DNA of 40,021 bases from a virus, in the IMG/VR virus record IMGVR_UViG_3300045988_095718, positions 1 to 40,021 of that record. One strand, given 5' to 3'. The translations under genes and the position numbers were made by a program. The notes beneath the pieces are model-generated. The model had not been told where the DNA came from. It worked only from the letters and a program-made list of their open reading frames with translations, and did no database searches. Of this stretch, positions 18,077 through 39,952 are shown piece after piece (position 1 is the stretch's first letter; each line of letters starts with the position of its first letter).

Positions 18077-19588
18077 ATGGGCCTTTGGAGCGCCTTGAGG
18101 AACGTTTTCCAGCCGCGCTACAGCATTTCCTTTGATTTGTCCGACCAGATGGCCGTGATTCAGGGTCAGACGGAGGCCGAGCTTTTCAAGACACAGCCGC
18201 ATTTGCGTACCGTGATTACTTTCCTGGCGCGGAATGTCGCTCAGGTCGGCTTGAAGGAATTCGAGCGTGTCAGCGATACGGACAGGCAGCGTGTGACCGA
18301 TGATGTGCTGATAAATCTGCTGAAGCAGCCGAACGGCACGATGACGGGCTATGAGTTGATGCGTCAGCTTGTGGCTGACTTGGCGCTTTACGATAACGCC
18401 TACTGGGTTGTCATGCAGACGCCTGATCGGGATGCCGATAAGTTCGGTAGCTGGCAGATTCAGCCGATTCCGCCATGCTGGGTGCAGGCGAAGCGTGATG
18501 GCAGTGTGTTCCAGCCGGCCTATTATCGCGTTTATCCTAATTTGGGCACGTCATACTATGATGTGCCGGCCGACGACATGCTTGTGTTCCACGGGTGGAA
18601 TCCGGACGACCCGACGCAGGGCGTTACTCCCGTGAGGGCCTTGAAGGACATTATCAGCGAGCAGATTCAGGCATGGTCGTATCGCACTCAGGTGTGGAAG
18701 CGCGGCGGCCGTATCGGCAGCGTGCTGGTGCGTCCGAAGGATGCGCCGGAATGGAATGACGCCGACCGCGAACGTTTCATGCGCGGGTGGAAGGAATTCA
18801 CCGACAAGGGAGCGCAGGCCGGTGCCACGCCATTGCTTGAGGATGGCATGGAGTTGAAGCGTTTGGGCTTCAATGCTCGCGAGGAGGAATTCAGCGAGGT
18901 CACGAAGCTTTCGCTGTCCACCGTCGCAAGCGTCTACCACGTCTCGCCTGTCATGGTCGGCATCCTTGATAACGCAAATTTCTCAAATACCAAGGAATTC
19001 CGCAAGATGCTGTATTCCGAGACGCTTGGTCCGACCATGCGCATGATCGAGGACAGGATAAACACTTTCCTCGCTCCGAAGGTCGGTGCGCCGGACGCGA
19101 ATTACATCGAATTCGACATCCGCAGCAAGCTTTCCGGCGATTTCGAGGAGCAGGCCAGTGTGATGAGTACTTCGGTGGGAGCTCCGTGGATTACGCCGAA
19201 TGAGGCGCGCGCCAGTCAGAATCTGCCGCGCGTCGATGGCGGTGACGAACTGGTTGTGCCGCTCAATGTCACCAAGGGCGGCCAGTCAAGTCCGCAGGAT
19301 GGAGGTGACCCGTCGCGTCCAGCCGACGGTTCGGCCATTGAATCGGATGACGGCGAGAAAACAGCCGTCATCGTCAATACTTGGCATGACCGCCTGGAGA
19401 AGAGCGTCAGATCACGTTTCGGCGCCGGTATGGGCGTCGATGACATCAAATGGCTCAAATGGCAGAACGAACTGCAGGCCGACCTGACCATCAAGGCCGG
19501 TTTGGGGCAATTCGATGCCGGTGTGAGGGCATTGCAGGAGACGGAGGACATGCGAACGCATTTCAAGGAGGTGCATGATGCACTTTAA
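18077..19588 (+). CDS. Portal protein (HK97-type)
   Basis: 503 aa, located between the terminase and the prohead protease. Confidence 0.8.
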   Translation: MGLWSALRNVFQPRYSISFDLSDQMAVIQGQTEAELFKTQPHLRTVITFLARNVAQVGLKEFERVSDTDRQRVTDDVLINLLKQPNGTMTGYELMRQLVADLALYDNAYWVVMQTPDRDADKFGSWQIQPIPPCWVQAKRDGSVFQPAYYRVYPNLGTSYYDVPADDMLVFHGWNPDDPTQGVTPVRALKDIISEQIQAWSYRTQVWKRGGRIGSVLVRPKDAPEWNDADRERFMRGWKEFTDKGAQAGATPLLEDGMELKRLGFNAREEEFSEVTKLSLSTVASVYHVSPVMVGILDNANFSNTKEFRKMLYSETLGPTMRMIEDRINTFLAPKVGAPDANYIEFDIRSKLSGDFEEQASVMSTSVGAPWITPNEARASQNLPRVDGGDELVVPLNVTKGGQSSPQDGGDPSRPADGSAIESDDGEKTAVIVNTWHDRLEKSVRSRFGAGMGVDDIKWLKWQNELQADLTIKAGLGQFDAGVRALQETEDMRTHFKEVHDAL

Positions 19589-34184: not shown

Positions 34185-35084
34185 ATGACATGGTCCAATG
34201 TCGGAAATTTGAAAGGACCCAAAGGCGACGTGGGCGAGACCTCCGACGGTATTCCGCAGGGAGCGATCGTCTTAGCCTACAATGCCAGTCCAACGTATAA
34301 GTTACTGCAGGCAAGCGACGAATGGATCGAATCTGGGAATTTCACCATCGGAATAAACCGGCCAGCCTATGATAGCAGCGGCAATCCGACGCTGAATGAT
34401 ACCGGTTCAGGACAACGTCGGCTCGTCCTGTTCGCCAAGGCATATCCCGCATATACCGAAACAGTAGATGTCTTCATCGGCGATTCAACCACGGCGATTT
34501 GTGATACAGCACCGGTGGATAAAAACTGGACGACTCTGATCGCAAACGCTGACGGGATCAGCCCCGTCAATGTCGCGGTCTCCGGCGCTGGGTTCCTGAA
34601 CGATGCGGGCATAAAGCAGGCATACCCCGATCAGGTCACGACCGCAATCCGCAAGACGCAGGGAAAGACCGTCCGTCGAGTTTTCCTCGTCGGACTGTGG
34701 AATGATGAATACAGCATCAAATCAGATATGGATGCCGTGATAAATGCCATGACGAAGACCGCAGACATGATTAAATCCGCGTGGCCCGGAGCGCAGCTGA
34801 TCTACATCGTCGAGGTTGCGCCGCAGACCGAATATTCTAAGGGTATAGTTAAAGCATTCAGCAGCGTCTTTGATAAGGTGTACCAACTGTTCGAGAGCAA
34901 GGGCTTCAATGTCACGCGCGACTGGTTCGACTGGCTGCCGGATGGCAAGGCGAATGGATATATGCACGATAACATCCATCCTAATGCCAAAGGCATGAAT
35001 GTCGCCGCACACAAAATCCGTGAATGGGTCAACACGCTTTCGGGACTGAGGATTGACGGCGAGATTCCGGCATGGAGCGAATGA
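34185..35084 (+). CDS. Fibre-anchored SGNH/GDSL-type esterase
   Basis: N-terminus NLKGPKGDVGE resembles the preceding fibre gene. SGNH blocks FIGDST, GLWND and HDNIHPN. Confidence 0.75.
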   Translation: MTWSNVGNLKGPKGDVGETSDGIPQGAIVLAYNASPTYKLLQASDEWIESGNFTIGINRPAYDSSGNPTLNDTGSGQRRLVLFAKAYPAYTETVDVFIGDSTTAICDTAPVDKNWTTLIANADGISPVNVAVSGAGFLNDAGIKQAYPDQVTTAIRKTQGKTVRRVFLVGLWNDEYSIKSDMDAVINAMTKTADMIKSAWPGAQLIYIVEVAPQTEYSKGIVKAFSSVFDKVYQLFESKGFNVTRDWFDWLPDGKANGYMHDNIHPNAKGMNVAAHKIREWVNTLSGLRIDGEIPAWSE

Positions 35085-35747: not shown

Positions 35748-35867
35748 ATGGACGAAGTGACCATGACGCCGGAAATGACACCGCAGGGTGATTCGATGCC
35801 GCCCGAAACCATTCAGGTCGTGTCCGAGGAGGACGCGGCCAAGGCTGTCGAGGGATTGGAGGCCTGA
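35748..35867 (+). CDS. Acidic 39-aa protein
   Basis: AAGGAGG RBS, located directly upstream of the lysin gene. Confidence 0.45.
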   Translation: MDEVTMTPEMTPQGDSMPPETIQVVSEEDAAKAVEGLEA

Positions 35868-35868
35868 T

Positions 35869-36663
35869 ATGGCAAGCGTAAGCGCTTTGATTAACCGTAT
35901 GCGCTACTGGTGCGCCGTCGCTAACATGGGCTATTCGCAGGCGGACCGCTGGAACTTCAACGCGTCTGCTGGCAACTGCGACTGCTCCAGTCTGGTAATC
36001 CACTGCCTGCGCGAGGCGGGCTTCAACACCGGCTCGGCCACCTACACCGGCAACCTCTCCGGTGAGCTGACCAAGCGCGGCTGGGCCCGTCTGCCCGCGA
36101 ACGGCAACCCGCAGCCGGGCGACATCCTGCTTAACGACGTGCACCACGTGGCCTTGTATTTGGGCGGCGGCAAGCTCGCGCAGGCGTCCATCAGCGAGCG
36201 TGGCACAGCCTACGGCGCGGCTGGAGACCAGACAGGCCGCGAAACCAACATCCGCGCCTACTACAACTATCCGTGGAGCTGCTACCTCCGCTACGGCGGC
36301 GGAAACACCTCTTCGGCATCCACTGGCGCATTGGCCGTGGATGGCAATGTCGGCCCGGCCACTGTGCGCCGTTGGCAGCAGGTGATGGGCACTGCGGTGG
36401 ATGGCATCATCAGCGGCCAGCAGGTGCCTGACGGCAGGACCTACGCGCGTCCCGCAATCGACAGCTCGGTGGTCCGCTACGGTGCTGGCGGCAGTGACTT
36501 GATCCGCGCCGTGCAGCGTCGCCTGGGCTGTGGTGTTGATGGTCTGCTCGGACCGGCCACCATTCGCGCCATCCAAGCGCATTACGGGTTGGCTCAGGAC
36601 GCGAGCTTCGGCCCAGCGACCGCACGCGCCTTGCAGACCGCGCTCAACCAGGGACGATTCTAA
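35869..36663 (+). CDS. Endolysin: NlpC/P60- or CHAP-like cysteine peptidase plus peptidoglycan-binding repeats
   Basis: Catalytic-type NCDCSSLV and GDILLNDVHHVALYLG. Three VDG..GPAT..A.Q repeats of PG_binding_1 type. Confidence 0.8.
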   Translation: MASVSALINRMRYWCAVANMGYSQADRWNFNASAGNCDCSSLVIHCLREAGFNTGSATYTGNLSGELTKRGWARLPANGNPQPGDILLNDVHHVALYLGGGKLAQASISERGTAYGAAGDQTGRETNIRAYYNYPWSCYLRYGGGNTSSASTGALAVDGNVGPATVRRWQQVMGTAVDGIISGQQVPDGRTYARPAIDSSVVRYGAGGSDLIRAVQRRLGCGVDGLLGPATIRAIQAHYGLAQDASFGPATARALQTALNQGRF

Positions 36664-36675
36664 GGAGGAGGACAG

Positions 36676-36954
36676 ATGGCAGAACATGCAGCGCCAACGA
36701 CTTTAGAGACCACGGTCAATAATCTGACCAACGAGTGTGAGGATGGTCAGGACAACCAGCCGCCGGACGCGTATACGCCGGTCTTCAGCAAGCAGGTTAG
36801 GACCGTGGTCTACGTGCTTGGCTTGGTCGCCTCTTGCGTCGGCCTCGGCTTCATGACCTTTGGTGATGCGGCTGTCGGCGGCTACATTTCGACCGTGGCC
36901 GGCTTCATCGCCAGCGGTCTCGGCGTCGCCTACAATCCGCTGCGCCGTGATTAA
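36676..36954 (+). CDS. Holin-like protein with two TM helices
   Basis: AAGGAGGAGG RBS. TM segments VVYVLGLVASCVGLGFMTF and GYISTVAGFIASGLGVAY. Located directly after the lysin gene. Confidence 0.7.
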   Translation: MAEHAAPTTLETTVNNLTNECEDGQDNQPPDAYTPVFSKQVRTVVYVLGLVASCVGLGFMTFGDAAVGGYISTVAGFIASGLGVAYNPLRRD

Positions 36955-37062
36955 TTTTCTGGCGTGAAACTCAAACTCGCGCCGGAGACTCAACCTCGGG
37001 TGTGGAAAAATTTGCGGAATTATAGTGTCCGTGGAATTTTTTACACCCGTTTTTTAACATTT

Positions 37063-37100
37063 GCCCCTCTCTCAGCATTGCTGGGGGAGGGGCTTTTCTT
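37063..37100 (+). terminator. Very strong intrinsic terminator ending the late/lysis transcript
   Basis: 14-bp stem GCCCCTCTCTCAGC / GCTGGGGGAGGGGC, loop ATTG, then TTTTCTT. Confidence 0.85.
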
Positions 37101-37454
37101 GTTATTCGGCGTGTTTGCGTGGTCGTCCGCCGCCGTCGCGGCGGCCCGGTGGTTTTGTGCGAATACCGTCTGGATCACGCTCACGGCGAGACGAATGTCC
37201 GCCGTCATGGGGTATCGTTGCAATTGAACTTGAGACCCGGACCTGCTTTGCTGGTGGGCAGGGTTTCGGGTTCGAAGCGTGTGGCTGGCTGCCGCAGGCA
37301 TCCGATGGCGAGTCGATGCGCCATCAGCGAGAGCTGGATGTCTCGCCCAACGGCTGGGCCAGACGGTTGAGACCAACCGGAGCCGTGACCCTTCCCGCGC
37401 AAACGGGACGCTAGTCATGCAGAAGACTGTAAAAAGATCAGCCACACGGCTTCG
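37101..37454 (+). ncRNA. Candidate structured non-coding segment bracketed by two terminators
   Basis: No ORF with an RBS or plausible composition. Hairpins at 37235-37271, 37304-37325, 37328-37346, 37364-37379 and 37393-37408. Ends at the terminator at 37455. Confidence 0.3.
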
Positions 37455-37489
37455 GAGGGGCGCTTGGTCGGTGCCCCTCTTTTAATTTT
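37455..37489 (+). terminator. Intrinsic terminator directly upstream of the orphan gene
   Basis: GAGGGGCGC-TTGGTCG-GTGCCCCTC followed by TTTTAATTTT. Confidence 0.8.
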
Positions 37490-37506
37490 CTGGGAGGATT
37501 CCGGGC

Positions 37507-38061
37507 GTGAACGTGACCGAGGCGAAGCGGCGGATGCTTGGCGAGGCCCGAAAGGCAGCCCGACTATACGCCAATCTCGTCGGAACGATCACGAGAATCG
37601 CGTGCGACGACGGGATGACGCTGGACATCCAATGGAAGGCCTCGAACTTCGCCCACCTATGCGGCCTGGAATACTACGCCGACGACAACCGCACCCGCAG
37701 ACTTCCCGCCCGACGCCTGTACACCGACCTCCTGTCCGGCCATGGGATCTCGGTGAAAAGGGTCGCGCCCACCGGAGACGCGCGATGGCTCGCGAGGAAG
37801 ACCGACGTGATAGCCAGCGCATTCGCACTGAACGACGCATCCATGGTGGTCGAATCAGGCAACAGCCGGATACGCCTCTACATGGGAAACACAGTCTGGT
37901 GCATCGGCCTCGGAAGAAGCGGAGAGGGCGGCCCCTACTATCCGCAATCCCTACGCAAGGGGAACGCGGCCAAGGAAAAAATGCCAGGAACCCAGATCCA
38001 CCATGTAGTCTCGATCAAATACCTGAACACGGCACAGTGCCACCCATCGATCCAAGACTGA
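37507..38061 (+). CDS. Orphan moron protein, 184 aa; possibly a toxin/RNase-like fold (unverified)
   Basis: GTG start lies 8 nt after GGGAGGA. Located between the lysis cassette and the integrase. The resemblance to phage BECR-type nuclease domains is from memory only. Confidence 0.65.
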   Translation: MNVTEAKRRMLGEARKAARLYANLVGTITRIACDDGMTLDIQWKASNFAHLCGLEYYADDNRTRRLPARRLYTDLLSGHGISVKRVAPTGDARWLARKTDVIASAFALNDASMVVESGNSRIRLYMGNTVWCIGLGRSGEGGPYYPQSLRKGNAAKEKMPGTQIHHVVSIKYLNTAQCHPSIQD

Positions 38062-38086: not shown

Positions 38087-38120
38087 CCGCCCCGGCGCTC
38101 GCGGATGAGCGCCGGGGCGG
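38087..38120 (-). terminator. Terminator of the minus-strand small-gene operon
   Basis: 14-bp perfect stem CCGCCCCGGCGCTC / GAGCGCCGGGGCGG. The T-run is on the minus strand (AACAACAAAA on the plus strand). Confidence 0.8.
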
Positions 38121-38123
38121 ACG

Positions 38124-38330
38124 TCACTCCGCCGGATGCTTGCGCGGCCTGCCACCGCCGACTCCGCGTCCGGGGCGTTGCGCGTTCCACCGGTCGATGG
38201 TCTCTGGCAGCCAGCCGCGCGTGCGGCCTATTAGGGCGTCCGGTTGGGGGAGCTTGTAGGCGCTGACGGCGGCTGTGCTGATGCCGAGGCGCTTGGACAC
38301 GTCGGTGACGCTCAGGTATTCGATGGTCAT
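38124..38330 (-). CDS. Excisionase-family HTH DNA-binding protein
   Basis: LSVTDVSKRLGISTAAVSAY..GWLPETIDRW is a typical Xis/MerR-type HTH. Close to the integrase gene. Confidence 0.75.
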   Translation of the reverse strand: MTIEYLSVTDVSKRLGISTAAVSAYKLPQPDALIGRTRGWLPETIDRWNAQRPGRGVGGGRPRKHPAE

Positions 38331-38331
38331 G

Positions 38332-38472
38332 TCAGTCCTTCCTTCCGGCGATGAGCGCGAATACGGCGCTGACGACGGCGCATCCGGCGGTGAGCGCGAA
38401 CGGCCAGCCGAACCATGCGCTAGCGGCGGTTCCGAGCGCGAACACCGCGCTGACTATCGATTCCGTTCTCAT
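38332..38472 (-). CDS. 46-aa two-TM hydrophobic peptide (below the ORF-track cutoff)
   Basis: Sequence MRTESIVSAVFALGTAASAWFGWPFALTAGCAVVSAVFALIAGRKD. Its stop is 1 nt from the ATG of the HTH gene. Confidence 0.5.
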   Translation of the reverse strand: MRTESIVSAVFALGTAASAWFGWPFALTAGCAVVSAVFALIAGRKD

Positions 38473-38500
38473 GATGTCCCATGGCATAATCGGAGATATG

Positions 38501-38545
38501 GGGTTCCGGCCCCCAGGTCTGGCCGGAACCCTTTCTCACTTTTTC
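38501..38545 (+). terminator. Plus-strand-oriented intrinsic terminator with no plus-strand gene to terminate
   Basis: 11-bp stem GGGTTCCGGCC / GGCCGGAACCC followed by TTTCTCACTTTTT. Overlaps the stop codon of the 39-aa minus-strand ORF. Confidence 0.55.
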
Positions 38546-38655
38546 CTCTTCGGCTTCCGCCTCATCTCCTTGATGAGTCCGGTCACGGCTTTGATGAGGG
38601 CCGCGAGGCTCGCGACGAGGAGCGAGATGCTGGTGATTATCTCCGATGGTGTCAT
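38536..38655 (-). CDS. 39-aa peptide with one TM helix and a Lys/Arg tail (type I toxin-like)
   Basis: Strong AAGGAGG RBS. Sequence MTPSEIITSISLLVASLAALIKAVTGLIKEMRRKPKRKK. Confidence 0.55.
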   Translation of the reverse strand: MTPSEIITSISLLVASLAALIKAVTGLIKEMRRKPKRKK

Positions 38656-38782
38656 GTTCACCTCCTTTCCTTGATATAAACTATATTAGCGCAGTAAATA
38701 AAGTAATGCAAGCCGAAACACGAAAAACATAAGAAAAACAGCGGATTGATAGACTTGATGCCACGCAAACGAAGGGGCAAGC

Positions 38783-39952
38783 ATGGCCTACACGATCCGC
38801 CAATACCAGACGAAAAGCGGAAAAAGATACGAAGTCAGATACCGTAAGCCGGACGGCACGGACACCGGCAAACGCGGCTTCAAACGCAAAATGGACGCCG
38901 ATGCCTGGGGCGCAGCGAACGTGACCACAGCTAAAAGCGTCGGAGCGTACATCGACCCACAAGCCGGAAGACGCTTGGTCGAAGACTTCTGGGAGCCATG
39001 GCTGGCCGCAAAAAAGACCAAGGCCAAACCAAGCTACATCAAGTCGCTGGAAGACGCTTGGCGAGTGCATGTGGAGCCGCAGTGGGGCATGAGGGAGATG
39101 CAGTCAATCACGCGCGACGAAGTGCAGCGGTGGGTCACCGATCTGGCAGGACGACGCAGTGCGTCGGTGACGATTCGCGCCGAGAATCTGCTTCGCAGCC
39201 TCATGGAGAGAGCAAAGGCCGATCGGTGCATCCACGACAATCCATGCGACGGCATCGAGCTGCCGCGCAAGCAGGTGCGGAAGCATGTCTATCTGTCGGC
39301 CGATGAATTGTCTCGTGTGGCGATGCAGTGCGGGTGGCGTGAGCCGATTGTGCTGACCTTGGGCTTGTGCGGCATGAGGTGGGGTGAGCTCGTGGCGCTC
39401 CGTGTCGAGGATGTCGATCTGCAACGCTGTCGACTGCATATATATAAGAGCATCACGCGTCTTTCCAGCAGGATGGTGGAGACCGACCCGAAGACCCATG
39501 ATGGACGTTCGGTGATGTTCCCCCTGGTGTTGCGTCCGCTGCTCGCCAGGCAATGCGAGGGGCGCGAGCCGTCCGATTTCCTTTTCACCGCCCCCGGCGA
39601 GCCTTTGGACGAGCCGATGGGCAACGGCTGGAATCCGACGCGAAGCGATGGGTGGTTCGCGGTGGCTCTTCGTCGCGCGGGCGTGGACCGTGGCCACATG
39701 ACGATTCACGATCTACGCCATACGGCCGCTAGTCTCATGGTGCAGTCGGGCGCGAACGTCAAGACAGTGCAAAGGCAGTTGGGGCACAAGTCGGCCGCCA
39801 TGACATTGGATGTTTACGCCGATCTCTTCGATGATGATCTGGACGAGTTGTCGGAGAGGATGGGTGGTTTGCTTTTTTCGCGGAATGTGGGCAAAATGTG
39901 GGCAAACGTGACGCAAGGTGTCGATGAAACCGTTGAAACGGTTGGTGTCTGA
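38783..39952 (+). CDS. int: Tyrosine integrase
   Basis: C-terminal catalytic region HDLRHTAASLMVQSGANVKTVQRQLGHKSAAMTLDVYADLF. N-terminal SAM-like arm-binding region. Confidence 0.92.
   Translation: MAYTIRQYQTKSGKRYEVRYRKPDGTDTGKRGFKRKMDADAWGAANVTTAKSVGAYIDPQAGRRLVEDFWEPWLAAKKTKAKPSYIKSLEDAWRVHVEPQWGMREMQSITRDEVQRWVTDLAGRRSASVTIRAENLLRSLMERAKADRCIHDNPCDGIELPRKQVRKHVYLSADELSRVAMQCGWREPIVLTLGLCGMRWGELVALRVEDVDLQRCRLHIYKSITRLSSRMVETDPKTHDGRSVMFPLVLRPLLARQCEGREPSDFLFTAPGEPLDEPMGNGWNPTRSDGWFAVALRRAGVDRGHMTIHDLRHTAASLMVQSGANVKTVQRQLGHKSAAMTLDVYADLFDDDLDELSERMGGLLFSRNVGKMWANVTQGVDETVETVGV
39887..39904 (+). repeat. Second copy of GTGGGCAAAATGTGGGCA, inside the 3' end of the integrase gene
   Basis: Exact match to 112-129. 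Confidence 0.7.

What the first reader, a model, noticed from the sequence alone, without database searches (positions are those of the whole stretch)
37063..38061. Moron locus: about 350 nt of ORF-poor, hairpin-rich sequence between two strong terminators, immediately upstream of an orphan 184-aa gene
The late transcript ends at a 14-bp-stem terminator (37063-37100). A second plus-strand terminator (37455-37489) lies 18 nt before the RBS of an orphan gene (37507-38061). The roughly 350 nt in between have no ORF with an RBS or believable composition; all three plus frames and the minus frames give Arg/Pro/His-rich products. The segment contains at least five stem-loops: 37235-37271 (nested), 37304-37325, 37328-37346, 37364-37379 and 37393-37408. 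Two adjacent hairpins have loops ending in GATG. The layout of RNA, then terminator, then protein is the architecture of type III toxin-antitoxin/abortive-infection loci. However, I see none of the tandem repeats those antitoxin RNAs carry, so if functional this would be a different kind of RNA-protein pair. The position between lysis cassette and integrase is the classic prophage slot for lysogen-expressed defence or fitness genes. The protein loosely reminds me of phage BECR-type RNase toxin domains, but that is unverified memory.
Basis: partly seen in the sequence, partly recalled or inferred. Interest (0 to 1): 0.65.

Follow-up and report, generated by a model that had tools for sequence, protein, structure and literature searches.

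The report
Conserved structured RNA paired with RNase gene
A Bifidobacterium prophage carries a self-contained cassette in which a roughly 265-base, intricately folded RNA that matches no catalogued RNA family always sits just in front of a predicted toxic RNA-cutting enzyme, an arrangement that most resembles RNA-antitoxin/toxin defence modules but is built from different parts.

Summary
The conserved element is not the whole 350 nt. It is a ~265-nt RNA (37226-37489) with its own -10 box (37213-37218), ending in the second terminator. It folds far better than shuffles (z = -5.9). Across 17 variants, 53 of its 75 modelled base pairs show compensatory changes. The fold has a 15-bp long-range closing helix, an H-type pseudoknot and a GNRA-capped hairpin. 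It matches no Rfam 15 family and has no tandem repeats.

The 184-aa gene is a Pfam PBECR4 member (a predicted BECR-fold RNase). The predicted catalytic His and Ser are conserved across the family.

Every distinct RNA variant I recovered has this gene 17-45 nt downstream, apart from one locus with a truncated gene. All five distant protein homologues I checked (27-39% identity) carry a diverged copy of the RNA. The RNA is more conserved than the coding sequence.

Best reading (about 0.45): a type III-like, AbiF/RCd22-like RNA-antitoxin/RNase-toxin moron. It fails the membership tests for the known type III families (no repeats, different toxin fold), so I call it a new variant. Function is untested.

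The parts
37063..37100 (+). Terminator 1: a 14-bp stem plus T-run. It insulates the cassette from the lysis operon and marks the left edge of the module shared with a prophage that has a different lysis cassette.
   Evidence: -28.4 kcal/mol, z = -6.0. In one search, identity to L008 begins here.
37190..37218 (+). Putative promoter of the RNA: -10 box TATCGT at 37213-37218, and a weak -35 (GACGAA, 37190-37195) 17 nt upstream.
   Evidence: A TAnnnT hexamer lies at the same position in 15 of 16 lineages. L232 has a canonical TTGACT-18-TATACT. The strict sigma-70 scan did not call a promoter in the window itself, so this part is inferred.
37226..37489 (+). The conserved structured RNA, about 264 nt, running from the inferred transcription start to the end of the U-tract.
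   Evidence: z = -5.9. Covariance model R1 scores 298 bits here and 20-78 bits on distant members. 94.1% of cells are paired and 53 of 75 pairs covary. No Rfam match.
37226..37273 (+). P0: the 5' long hairpin. The inner helix is 37242-37248 with 37256-37262.
   Evidence: helix 1: 9 of 15 pairs covary. The register of the outer part is ambiguous.
37273..37287 (+). P1 5' strand. It pairs with 37439-37454 to form a 15-bp long-range helix, with one bulge, that closes the multi-helix core.
   Evidence: helix 2: 14 of 15 pairs have changes on both sides.
37297..37342 (+). P2 (37297-37303 with 37336-37342), P2a hairpin (37304-37310 with 37319-37325) and P2b (GC-GAGA-GC, 37327-37334, with a GNRA-type loop) form a three-way junction.
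   Evidence: helices 3-5. The loop reads GAGA, GAUA or GUAA in the alignment.
37345..37386 (+). H-type pseudoknot. P3 is 37345-37348 with 37356-37359. The P3 loop (37350-37355) pairs with 37381-37386. P4 hairpin (37364-37368 with 37375-37379) is nested inside.
   Evidence: 95.9% paired, 8 of 10 pairs covary, slid controls 25-45%. P3 was not part of the model used to make the alignment.
37393..37408 (+). P5: a variable hairpin whose length and sequence differ between lineages.
37413..37437 (+). P6 (AGUC-AUGCAGAA-GACU) plus the A-rich strand GUAAAAAGA. This is the most conserved stretch. It is a candidate protein-contact or cleavage site, which is an inference.
   Evidence: It is invariant except for two transitions in the 14 Bifidobacterium variants, and recognisable in distant members.
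37454..37489 (+). Terminator 2 (11-bp stem plus U-tract), directly abutting the P1 3' strand.
   Evidence: and 75 (helix 10: 8 of 10 pairs covary). No conserved antiterminator partner.
37492..37497 (+). Ribosome-binding site GGGAGG, 9 nt before the GTG start.
37507..38061 (+). Gene for a solo PBECR4-family protein (184 aa), a predicted metal-independent BECR-fold endoRNase.
   Evidence: Pfam PF18813, E = 5e-7, 30.6 bits against GA 27. Family-wide invariant residues H50, L51, G53, G127, G134 and P146, with S148 nearly invariant. AF2 model pLDDT 82.7.
38087..38120 (.). Bidirectional terminator (14 bp, 13 G-C pairs) that closes the cassette against the converging HTH/excisionase-like gene.
   Evidence: -35.6 kcal/mol.

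Best explanation
The locus is a self-contained two-part cassette carried as a prophage moron. A constitutive, -10-dominant promoter drives a ~265-nt highly structured RNA. Most transcripts stop at the intrinsic terminator (37454-37489), so the free RNA is in excess. Occasional read-through yields the mRNA for a PBECR4 endoRNase.

I propose that the RNA binds its cognate RNase directly and holds it in check, acting as an antitoxin and also limiting its synthesis. This would work like ToxI/ToxN, and especially like RCd22/AbiF of the C. difficile phi027 prophage. Loss of the RNA supply, for example through transcription shut-off on phage infection or loss of the element, would free the RNase and arrest the cell.

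Shown here: the RNA's existence as a conserved fold, its boundaries, the terminator, the family assignment of the protein, and the strict co-inheritance of the two. Inferred: transcription, toxicity, RNA-protein binding and the defence role.
For: 1. The RNA is real.
- z = -5.9.
- 94.1% of cells paired, against 36-46% in slid controls; 53 of 75 pairs have compensatory changes.
- The pseudoknot helix P3 was not in the model and still covaries.
- Non-3n indels rule out coding.

2. The RNA is under stronger constraint than the gene: 70-89% nt identity against 62-73% for the CDS in all 10 comparisons.

3. The partnership is exclusive.
- All 28 distinct RNA variants from viral, genome and metagenome scans are followed by the PBECR4 homologue. 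The one exception, L156, has the gene truncated after about 10 codons.
- 5 of 5 distant protein homologues (27-39% identity) carry a diverged RNA that the covariance model detects at 20-78 bits. Nothing was found in 9 control loci.

4. No other partner gene is conserved. Neighbours include lysis genes, integrases, ABC transporters, glycosidases and an RM-like methylase. A predicted RNase toxin therefore has no protein antitoxin candidate.

5. The active-site residues expected for PBECR (His in the N-terminal helix, C-terminal Ser/Thr; PMC5512222) are conserved: H50 and S148.

6. P1 and the terminator are adjacent and compatible, and no positionally conserved antiterminator exists. That fits a constitutive leaky terminator.

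7. The architecture is identical to the experimentally characterised RCd22/AbiF system: SigA promoter, ncRNA, terminator, RBS, toxin, in a prophage. [quoted passage not shown]
Against: - There are no expression, toxicity or binding data.
- The RNA is much larger and more elaborate than any known RNA antitoxin. Its multi-way junction, pseudoknot and GNRA loop look more like a riboswitch or ribozyme-class fold.
- It has no repeats and no evidence of processing.
- PADLOC has no model for the protein.
- The BECR fold could not be confirmed against solved structures. There was no PDB hit, and only two unnamed viral models matched.
- The window's own -35 is weak, and the strict scan calls no promoter.
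- In L232 the separate terminator hairpin is missing and P1 itself precedes the U-run. That would also fit folding-coupled attenuation.
Confidence: 0.45

Rival explanations
1. The RNA is a purely cis-acting leader. The structured 5' UTR is the feedback target of its own RNase, as with the rne, rnc and pnp leaders. Alternatively it is a protein- or folding-dependent attenuator that sets how often RNA polymerase reads through into PBECR4. In this reading it has no trans antitoxin role.
For: - The RNA sits directly in the 5' leader, with a terminator 18 nt from the start codon.
- Exclusive association with one RNase family is also what autoregulatory leaders show.
- In L232, P1 itself is followed by the U-run, which couples folding to termination.
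- RNase autoregulation through structured leaders is established biology (my knowledge; not tested here).
Against: - A strong, apparently constitutive terminator with no conserved alternative pairing would leave the gene nearly silent.
- If the protein is a toxin, feedback alone gives no protection.
- The RNA is more conserved than the protein, which is unusual for a mere leader.
Confidence: 0.2
2. The RNA is a riboswitch-like sensor. It binds a small molecule or another signal, for example a nucleotide second messenger made during infection, and controls terminator read-through into the RNase gene.
For: - The size and complexity fit: closing helix P1, multi-way junction, pseudoknot, GNRA loop, and highly conserved unpaired nucleotides.
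- A terminator lies immediately downstream.
Against: - The P1 3' strand and the terminator 5' arm do not overlap.
- The best antiterminator partner changes position between lineages.
- The RNA is linked to a single gene family rather than a pathway.
- It matches no Rfam riboswitch.
Confidence: 0.12
3. The RNA is a positive cofactor. It forms an RNP with PBECR4 that is needed for the enzyme's activity, stability or target choice, rather than inhibiting it.
For: Strict co-inheritance and the high conservation of the RNA fit an obligate RNP equally well.
Against: - There is no hypervariable guide-like segment. Near-identical loci have 99.6-100% identical RNA.
- Other PBECR domains occur as solo versions or fused within polyvalent phage proteins, and no RNA partner is reported for them (PMC5512222).
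Confidence: 0.1
4. The element is a decayed or unrecognised protein-coding gene, or chance GC-rich hairpins with no function.
For: Several mechanical ORFs of 65-134 aa cross the segment. Gene callers sometimes extend the PBECR4 ORF through it, as in P0007 (270 aa), P0018 (245 aa) and P0023 (220 aa).
Against: - Non-3n indels.
- No family hits.
- The ATG inside the invariant 25-mer is ACG in five lineages.
- Strong covariation and z = -5.9.
Confidence: 0.02

Closest known systems
AbiF/RCd22 system with the abiF RNA motif (Rfam RF03085) of the C. difficile phi027 prophage (bioRxiv 10.1101/2025.04.15.648962)
   Same: It is prophage-borne. The order is sigma-A promoter, structured non-coding RNA, Rho-independent terminator, RBS, toxic RNA-targeting protein. 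A short RNA predominates, with rare read-through. The RNA is not cut into repeat units. The RNA neutralises the protein in cis and in trans.
   Different: RCd22 is 100-130 nt and is built from two copies of a ~35-nt hairpin motif. The RNA here is ~265 nt and single-copy, with 10 helices and a pseudoknot. The protein there is Abi_2/AbiD/F, which that paper links structurally to ancestral Cas13 proteins; here it is PBECR4. No RF03085 match.
Classical type III toxin-antitoxin systems (ToxIN, CptIN, TenpIN)
   Same: An RNA gene, a terminator and an endoRNase toxin gene lie on one strand. The systems are carried by mobile elements and have abortive-infection roles (PMC5772629 and PMC8860590 abstracts).
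   Different: Those antitoxins are tandem repeats (36-nt units in ToxI) that the toxin processes and that assemble into cyclic complexes. Here there are no repeats. Pfam assigns the toxin only to PBECR4 and PADLOC has no model for it. From my own knowledge, the ToxN fold is Kid/MazF-like.
PBECR4 domain family, PF18813 (Iyer et al. 2017, PMC5512222)
   Same: The protein scores above the gathering threshold. [quoted passage not shown] It is a solo version in a (pro)phage.
   Different: The paper describes PBECR domains mainly inside virion-delivered polyvalent proteins and reports no RNA partner. This subfamily is small: 62 clusters at E<1e-3 among 1.84 billion representatives. Its named members are all Bifidobacterium. 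It is always preceded by the RNA.
Large prophage-associated structured ncRNAs and RNA-protein gene pairs (GOLLD, ROOL, HEARO-IscB)
   Same: These are long, intricately folded RNAs with pseudoknots and long-range helices, found in prophages or mobile elements. HEARO is tied to one protein family. This comparison rests on my own knowledge.
   Different: No Rfam 15 model matches. The partner is an RNase rather than an IscB nuclease, and there is no guide-like variable region.

Membership tests
Type III toxin-antitoxin (ToxIN/CptIN/TenpIN) | RNA gene directly upstream of the toxin gene on the same strand, separated by an intrinsic terminator | tested here: met
   The arrangement is conserved in homologous loci.
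Type III toxin-antitoxin (ToxIN/CptIN/TenpIN) | Antitoxin RNA made of tandem direct repeats | tested here: not met
   TRF found 0 arrays at minimum score 30. There are no direct-repeat families inside the RNA.
Type III toxin-antitoxin (ToxIN/CptIN/TenpIN) | Toxin belongs to the ToxN/AbiQ, CptN or TenpN protein families | tested here: not met
   Pfam gives only PBECR4. PADLOC, NCBIfam and PHROGs give no hit.
Type III toxin-antitoxin (ToxIN/CptIN/TenpIN) | The protein is toxic and is neutralised by direct binding of the RNA | not testable with these tools
   Needs expression, rescue and pull-down experiments.
abiF-motif RNA / AbiF system | RNA matches RF03085 and the protein is Abi_2 | tested here: not met
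   cmscan at E<=1 found nothing in the window or in 5 related loci. Pfam shows no Abi_2.
PBECR4 (PF18813) | HMM score above Pfam's gathering threshold | tested here: met
   30.6 bits against 27, E = 5.2e-7, residues 16-141. Most homologues carry a precomputed PF18813 hit. NCBI names the B. biavatii and B. pseudolongum proteins 'PBECR4 domain-containing'.
PBECR4 (PF18813) | [quoted passage not shown] | tested here: met
   H50 (NFAHLCGL, in model helix 45-52) is invariant. S148 (P-x-S) is S or T in all 17 sequences, at 27-65% identity to the window protein. A late His (H166) is present in most.
PBECR4 (PF18813) | BECR fold (a helix followed by a 4-5-stranded sheet), confirmed against a solved structure | tested here: inconclusive
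   The AF2 model has pLDDT 82.7 and alpha+beta topology. No PDB match reached E<0.1. The PDB sequence-profile search found nothing. Two unnamed BFVD models match at TM 0.65-0.71.
Transcription-terminating riboswitch | Mutually exclusive terminator and antiterminator pairing that overlaps the aptamer's closing helix | tested here: inconclusive
   P1 and the terminator abut without overlap. The best partner of the terminator 5' arm falls in the same region in 9 of 17 sequences and elsewhere in the rest.
Transcription-terminating riboswitch | The same aptamer upstream of several functionally related gene families | tested here: not met
   Only the PBECR4 subfamily follows the RNA.
Any Rfam 15 family | Covariance-model match | tested here: not met
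   There were no relevant hits at E<=1. The only hits were chance-level: CC2171 at 38501-38677, E = 0.21, and a miRNA model in L233.

The most novel reading that the evidence does not exclude
This is the founding example of a new class of RNA-toxin module. A large, single-copy, tertiary-structured RNA (long-range helix, H-type pseudoknot, GNRA loop, invariant 25-mer) directly neutralises or gates a BECR-fold RNase. It would be a type III-like toxin-antitoxin/abortive-infection system assembled from parts unrelated to ToxIN, CptIN, TenpIN or AbiF. It would also give the first RNA partner and the first regulatory logic for the PBECR RNases.
Probability: 0.4. Interest if true: 0.8.

Novelty: new variant of a known kind. 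Interest (0 to 1): 0.72.

Why it matters
- It would add an uncatalogued large structured RNA class, about 265 nt with strong covariation.
- It would extend RNA-antitoxin systems to the BECR superfamily of RNases.
- It would give the first testable handle on what solo phage PBECR nucleases do. They have only been predicted to be RNases since 2017.
- It would explain a very common accessory cassette of human-gut Bifidobacterium prophages. The 184-aa protein cluster alone has 672 member sequences, and more than 100 metagenome and virome contigs carry the RNA.
- Such a module could affect prophage maintenance and phage resistance in an important commensal and probiotic genus. It could also supply a compact RNA-controlled RNase for engineering.

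Tried and rejected
1. Protein-coding readings of the spacer. Five ORFs were scanned against Pfam, PHROGs, PADLOC and NCBIfam with no result. Indels and the ATG-to-ACG change also argue against a small peptide MQKTVKR....
2. Known RNA families. Rfam at E<=1 found nothing in the window or in 5 related loci. ARAGORN found no tRNA or tmRNA.
3. Tandem repeats as in ToxI: none.
4. A conserved antiterminator: the partner's position is not conserved.
5. A solved-structure relative of the protein: none by sequence profile or by Foldseek against the PDB.
6. Homologues in isolated phage genomes or plasmids. blastn and tblastn found none.
7. A protein-pattern scan of GTDB genomes failed. The DNA 19-mer of the RNA then found three Bifidobacterium species plus nine chance hits, which served as negative controls.
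8. The segment 37094-37225 and the 55-aa minus-strand ORF 37041-37208. There is no structure signal (z = -0.4 and -1.0), no family hit, and no conservation outside near-identical loci.
9. The strict sigma-70 scan finds no promoter for the RNA in the window, L001 or L049. The promoter call rests on the conserved TAnnnT box and on L232.
10. The Minerva preprint (10.64898/2026.09.22.753630) could not be opened. Term counts show it mentions neither Bifidobacterium nor (P)BECR.
Full report
**Setting.** The window is a tailed-phage prophage. It has a portal gene at 18077-19588, an ELLD/NlpC-P60 endolysin at 35788-36663, a 92-aa membrane protein in the holin position at 36676-36954, and a tyrosine integrase at 38783-39952. 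Named homologues of the gene under study are all from Bifidobacterium: B. biavatii, B. samirii, B. miconis, B. margollesii, B. pseudolongum and 'uncultured Bifidobacterium'.

**Checking the observation.**
- Terminator 1: 37063-37093 plus T-run, 14 pairs, -28.4 kcal/mol, z = -6.0.
- Terminator 2: 37454-37480 plus T-run to 37489, 11 pairs, -20.4 kcal/mol, z = -4.2.

GGGAGG at 37492-37497 and GTG at 37507 open the 184-aa ORF. A 14-bp bidirectional terminator at 38087-38120 closes it. The spacer contains mechanical ORFs on both strands, but none matches any of four profile libraries. There are no tandem repeats.

**What is conserved.** I fetched loci that encode homologues of the 184-aa protein at 46-99% identity. 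The ~265 nt immediately upstream aligns at 70-89% nucleotide identity. That exceeds the 62-73% identity of the coding sequence in every one of ten comparisons.

The alignment contains 1-, 2- and 4-nt indels, and conservation is not codon-like. The segment is therefore not coding. Conservation starts about 30 nt upstream of 37226, at a TAnnnT hexamer (37213-37218 in the window) that is present in 15 of 16 lineages. Some lineages add a good -35, and L232 has a canonical TTGACT-18-TATACT.

It is spacer plus promoter. The RNA proper is 37226-37489: MFE -132.7 kcal/mol, z = -5.9, 0 of 200 shuffles as good.

**Structure.** RNAalifold on seven sequences predicted a 5' hairpin (P0), a long-range helix (P1) enclosing several hairpins, and the terminator. 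22 pairs showed compensatory changes. I refined this by hand and built a covariance model of 267 positions and 75 pairs. I then aligned 17 variants to it.
- 94.1% of cells form standard pairs, against 36-46% when partners are slid by 1-3 columns.
- 53 of 75 pairs show changes on both sides.
- The covariation score is 0.432, against 0.05-0.10 for slid controls, and 0 of 500 shuffles reach it.

P1 (37273-37287 with 37439-37454) covaries at 14 of 15 pairs. The loop of P3 (37350-37355) pairs with 37381-37386. P3 itself was not in the model, so the alignment was not fitted to it. Even so it is 98.5% paired, with 3 of 4 pairs covarying. This is a genuine H-type pseudoknot.

P2b carries a GNRA-type loop (GAGA, GAUA or GUAA). 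The stretch 37413-37437 (AGUCAUGCAGAAGACUGUAAAAAGA) is invariant apart from two transitions across the Bifidobacterium variants. The fifth (37328-37346) conflicts with the covarying helix P2 and is not conserved. The alignment was fitted to the model, which inflates the pairing percentages. The slid controls, the unfitted P3 helix and the earlier MAFFT-only analysis all point the same way.

**The protein.**
- Family: it is a Pfam PBECR4 member (30.6 bits against GA 27). PBECR4 is one of the 'phage BECR' predicted RNases defined by Iyer et al. 2017.
[quoted passage not shown] In 17 sequences at 27-65% identity to the window protein, H50, L51, G53, G127, G134 and P146 are invariant. S148 is nearly so, and a late His is usual.
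- Structure: the AF2 model is confident (pLDDT 82.7). It has no relative in the PDB by fold or by sequence. Two unnamed viral models match it.
- Distribution: the subfamily is small, with 62 clusters at E<1e-3 among 1.84 billion representatives. It is absent from isolated phage genomes and plasmids.

**The partnership.** A 19-mer from the invariant stretch was scanned through viral, GTDB-genome and metagenome collections. A profile search of the hits gave 28 distinct RNA variants. Each is followed, 17-25 nt after the terminator, by the PBECR4 homologue.

The single exception is L156. There the gene is truncated after about 10 codons while the RNA is intact.

In the other direction, I examined five distant protein homologues (P0039, P0040, P0044, P0046 and P0048; 27-39% identity). 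All have a diverged copy of the RNA upstream. The model detects these copies at 50.6, 78.1, 20.3, 34.9-45.3 and 51.5 bits respectively. Nine chance-hit control loci gave nothing.

Flanking genes are unrelated from locus to locus. They include lysis cassettes of three kinds, integrases, an ABC transporter, glycoside hydrolases, an RM-like methylase, and NUDIX/ROK genes. In L001 the cassette is inverted relative to the lysis genes. The mobile, co-inherited unit is therefore promoter, RNA, terminator and PBECR4. No conserved protein partner exists.

**Mechanism.** A predicted RNase toxin has no protein antitoxin. It is preceded by a more-conserved RNA, and a terminator that shows no conserved alternative pairing separates the two. 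This matches the logic of type III toxin-antitoxin systems. It is closest to RCd22/AbiF of the C. difficile phi027 prophage. There the same promoter, ncRNA, terminator, RBS, toxin layout yields mostly short RNA, and the RNA neutralises the toxin in cis and in trans without being cut into repeats. I take this as the best explanation, at about 0.45.

Rivals are as follows:
- A purely cis autoregulatory or attenuating leader (0.2).
- A ligand-sensing riboswitch (0.12). The tertiary complexity favours it. The lack of terminator overlap and the single-gene-family association count against it.
- An activating RNP cofactor (0.1).

Chance or coding origins are effectively excluded.

**Membership and novelty.** The locus fails two defining tests for the known type III families: repeat RNA and a ToxN/CptN/TenpN toxin. 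It also fails the abiF-motif/Abi_2 test, so it should not be filed under any of them. The protein does pass the PBECR4 tests. No Rfam 15 model matches the RNA. In the held literature, no paper connects BECR or PBECR proteins with an RNA partner. One recent preprint on ncRNA-protein co-evolution could not be read. Large-scale motif catalogues from gut metagenomes could contain this RNA unnamed. I rate it a new variant of a known kind. The RNA-antitoxin reading is inferred, not shown.

Noticed in passing
window 36951-36968 and 37482-37511: An exact 12-nt direct repeat, TTAATTTTCTGG, lies just after the holin stop and again at the end of the RNA's U-tract. Each copy is followed by ..GGCGTGAA, with GTG as a start codon (the 87-aa ORF 36964-37227 and the PBECR4 start). 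This may be an illegitimate-recombination scar from capture of the cassette.
   Followed up: partly
window 37976-37981 (A6 run in the PBECR4 CDS): Homologous contigs carry A7 or A8 here (L162; L047/L075). Protein clusters of 199-200 aa (P0002-P0005, P0009, P0028) diverge from the 184-aa form exactly after residue 158, losing the conserved C-terminal strand with the late His. P0006 shifts frame earlier. These are either natural toxin-inactivating frameshifts or assembly errors.
   Followed up: partly
L156 4561-4870: The RNA is intact, but the PBECR4 gene is truncated after about 10 codons (TTG AAC GTC GCC AAG GAG...). A 734-aa ORF next to it looks like a restriction-modification methylase from its sequence; I did not scan it. 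This may be an orphan RNA or a recent deletion.
   Followed up: partly
window 37196-37212 and the same position in L001, L051, L007 and L053: An inverted repeat sits in the promoter spacer (e.g. TCCGCAT-G-ATGCGGA in L001, TCCAAG-TGT-CTTGGA in L007). It is absent in L084/L096. It could be an operator or a DNA/RNA hairpin.
   Followed up: no
L053/L054/L055 (P0007, 270 aa), P0018 (245 aa), P0023 (220 aa): Gene callers extend the PBECR4 ORF upstream through the RNA and terminator. In L053 the called start coincides with the start of the RNA, so this looks like an annotation artefact.
   Followed up: partly
L232 1100-1141: In this lower-GC (47%) distant member the separate terminator hairpin is missing. 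The long-range helix P1 is followed directly by UUUUACCUUGAUUUUCUU, so P1 itself may act as the terminator stem.
   Followed up: partly
window 37041-37208 (minus strand): A 55-aa ATG ORF (MTADIRLAVSVIQTVF...) lies inside the 134-aa mechanical ORF. It runs from the RNA promoter through terminator 1. It has no SD sequence, no family hit and no conservation outside near-identical prophages.
   Followed up: partly
L008 1-867 versus window 37062 onward: A prophage with a different lysis cassette (GH25+CW_7 lysin, Dp1 holin) and an RVT_1 reverse transcriptase (possibly a DGR) shares the window's sequence at about 100% identity, starting exactly at terminator 1. In L008 the small genes downstream are followed by tyrS instead of the integrase.
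   Followed up: partly
window 38124-38661 (minus strand): A 68-aa HTH protein (phrog_597 DNA-binding protein, E = 4e-25, with weak excisionase and Cro-like hits) is followed by 51-aa and 41-aa hydrophobic ORFs. They converge on the cassette and travel with it in L008/L009.
   Followed up: no
window 34185-35084: A GDSL-family lipase/acylhydrolase gene lies just upstream of the lysis genes in the prophage.
   Followed up: no
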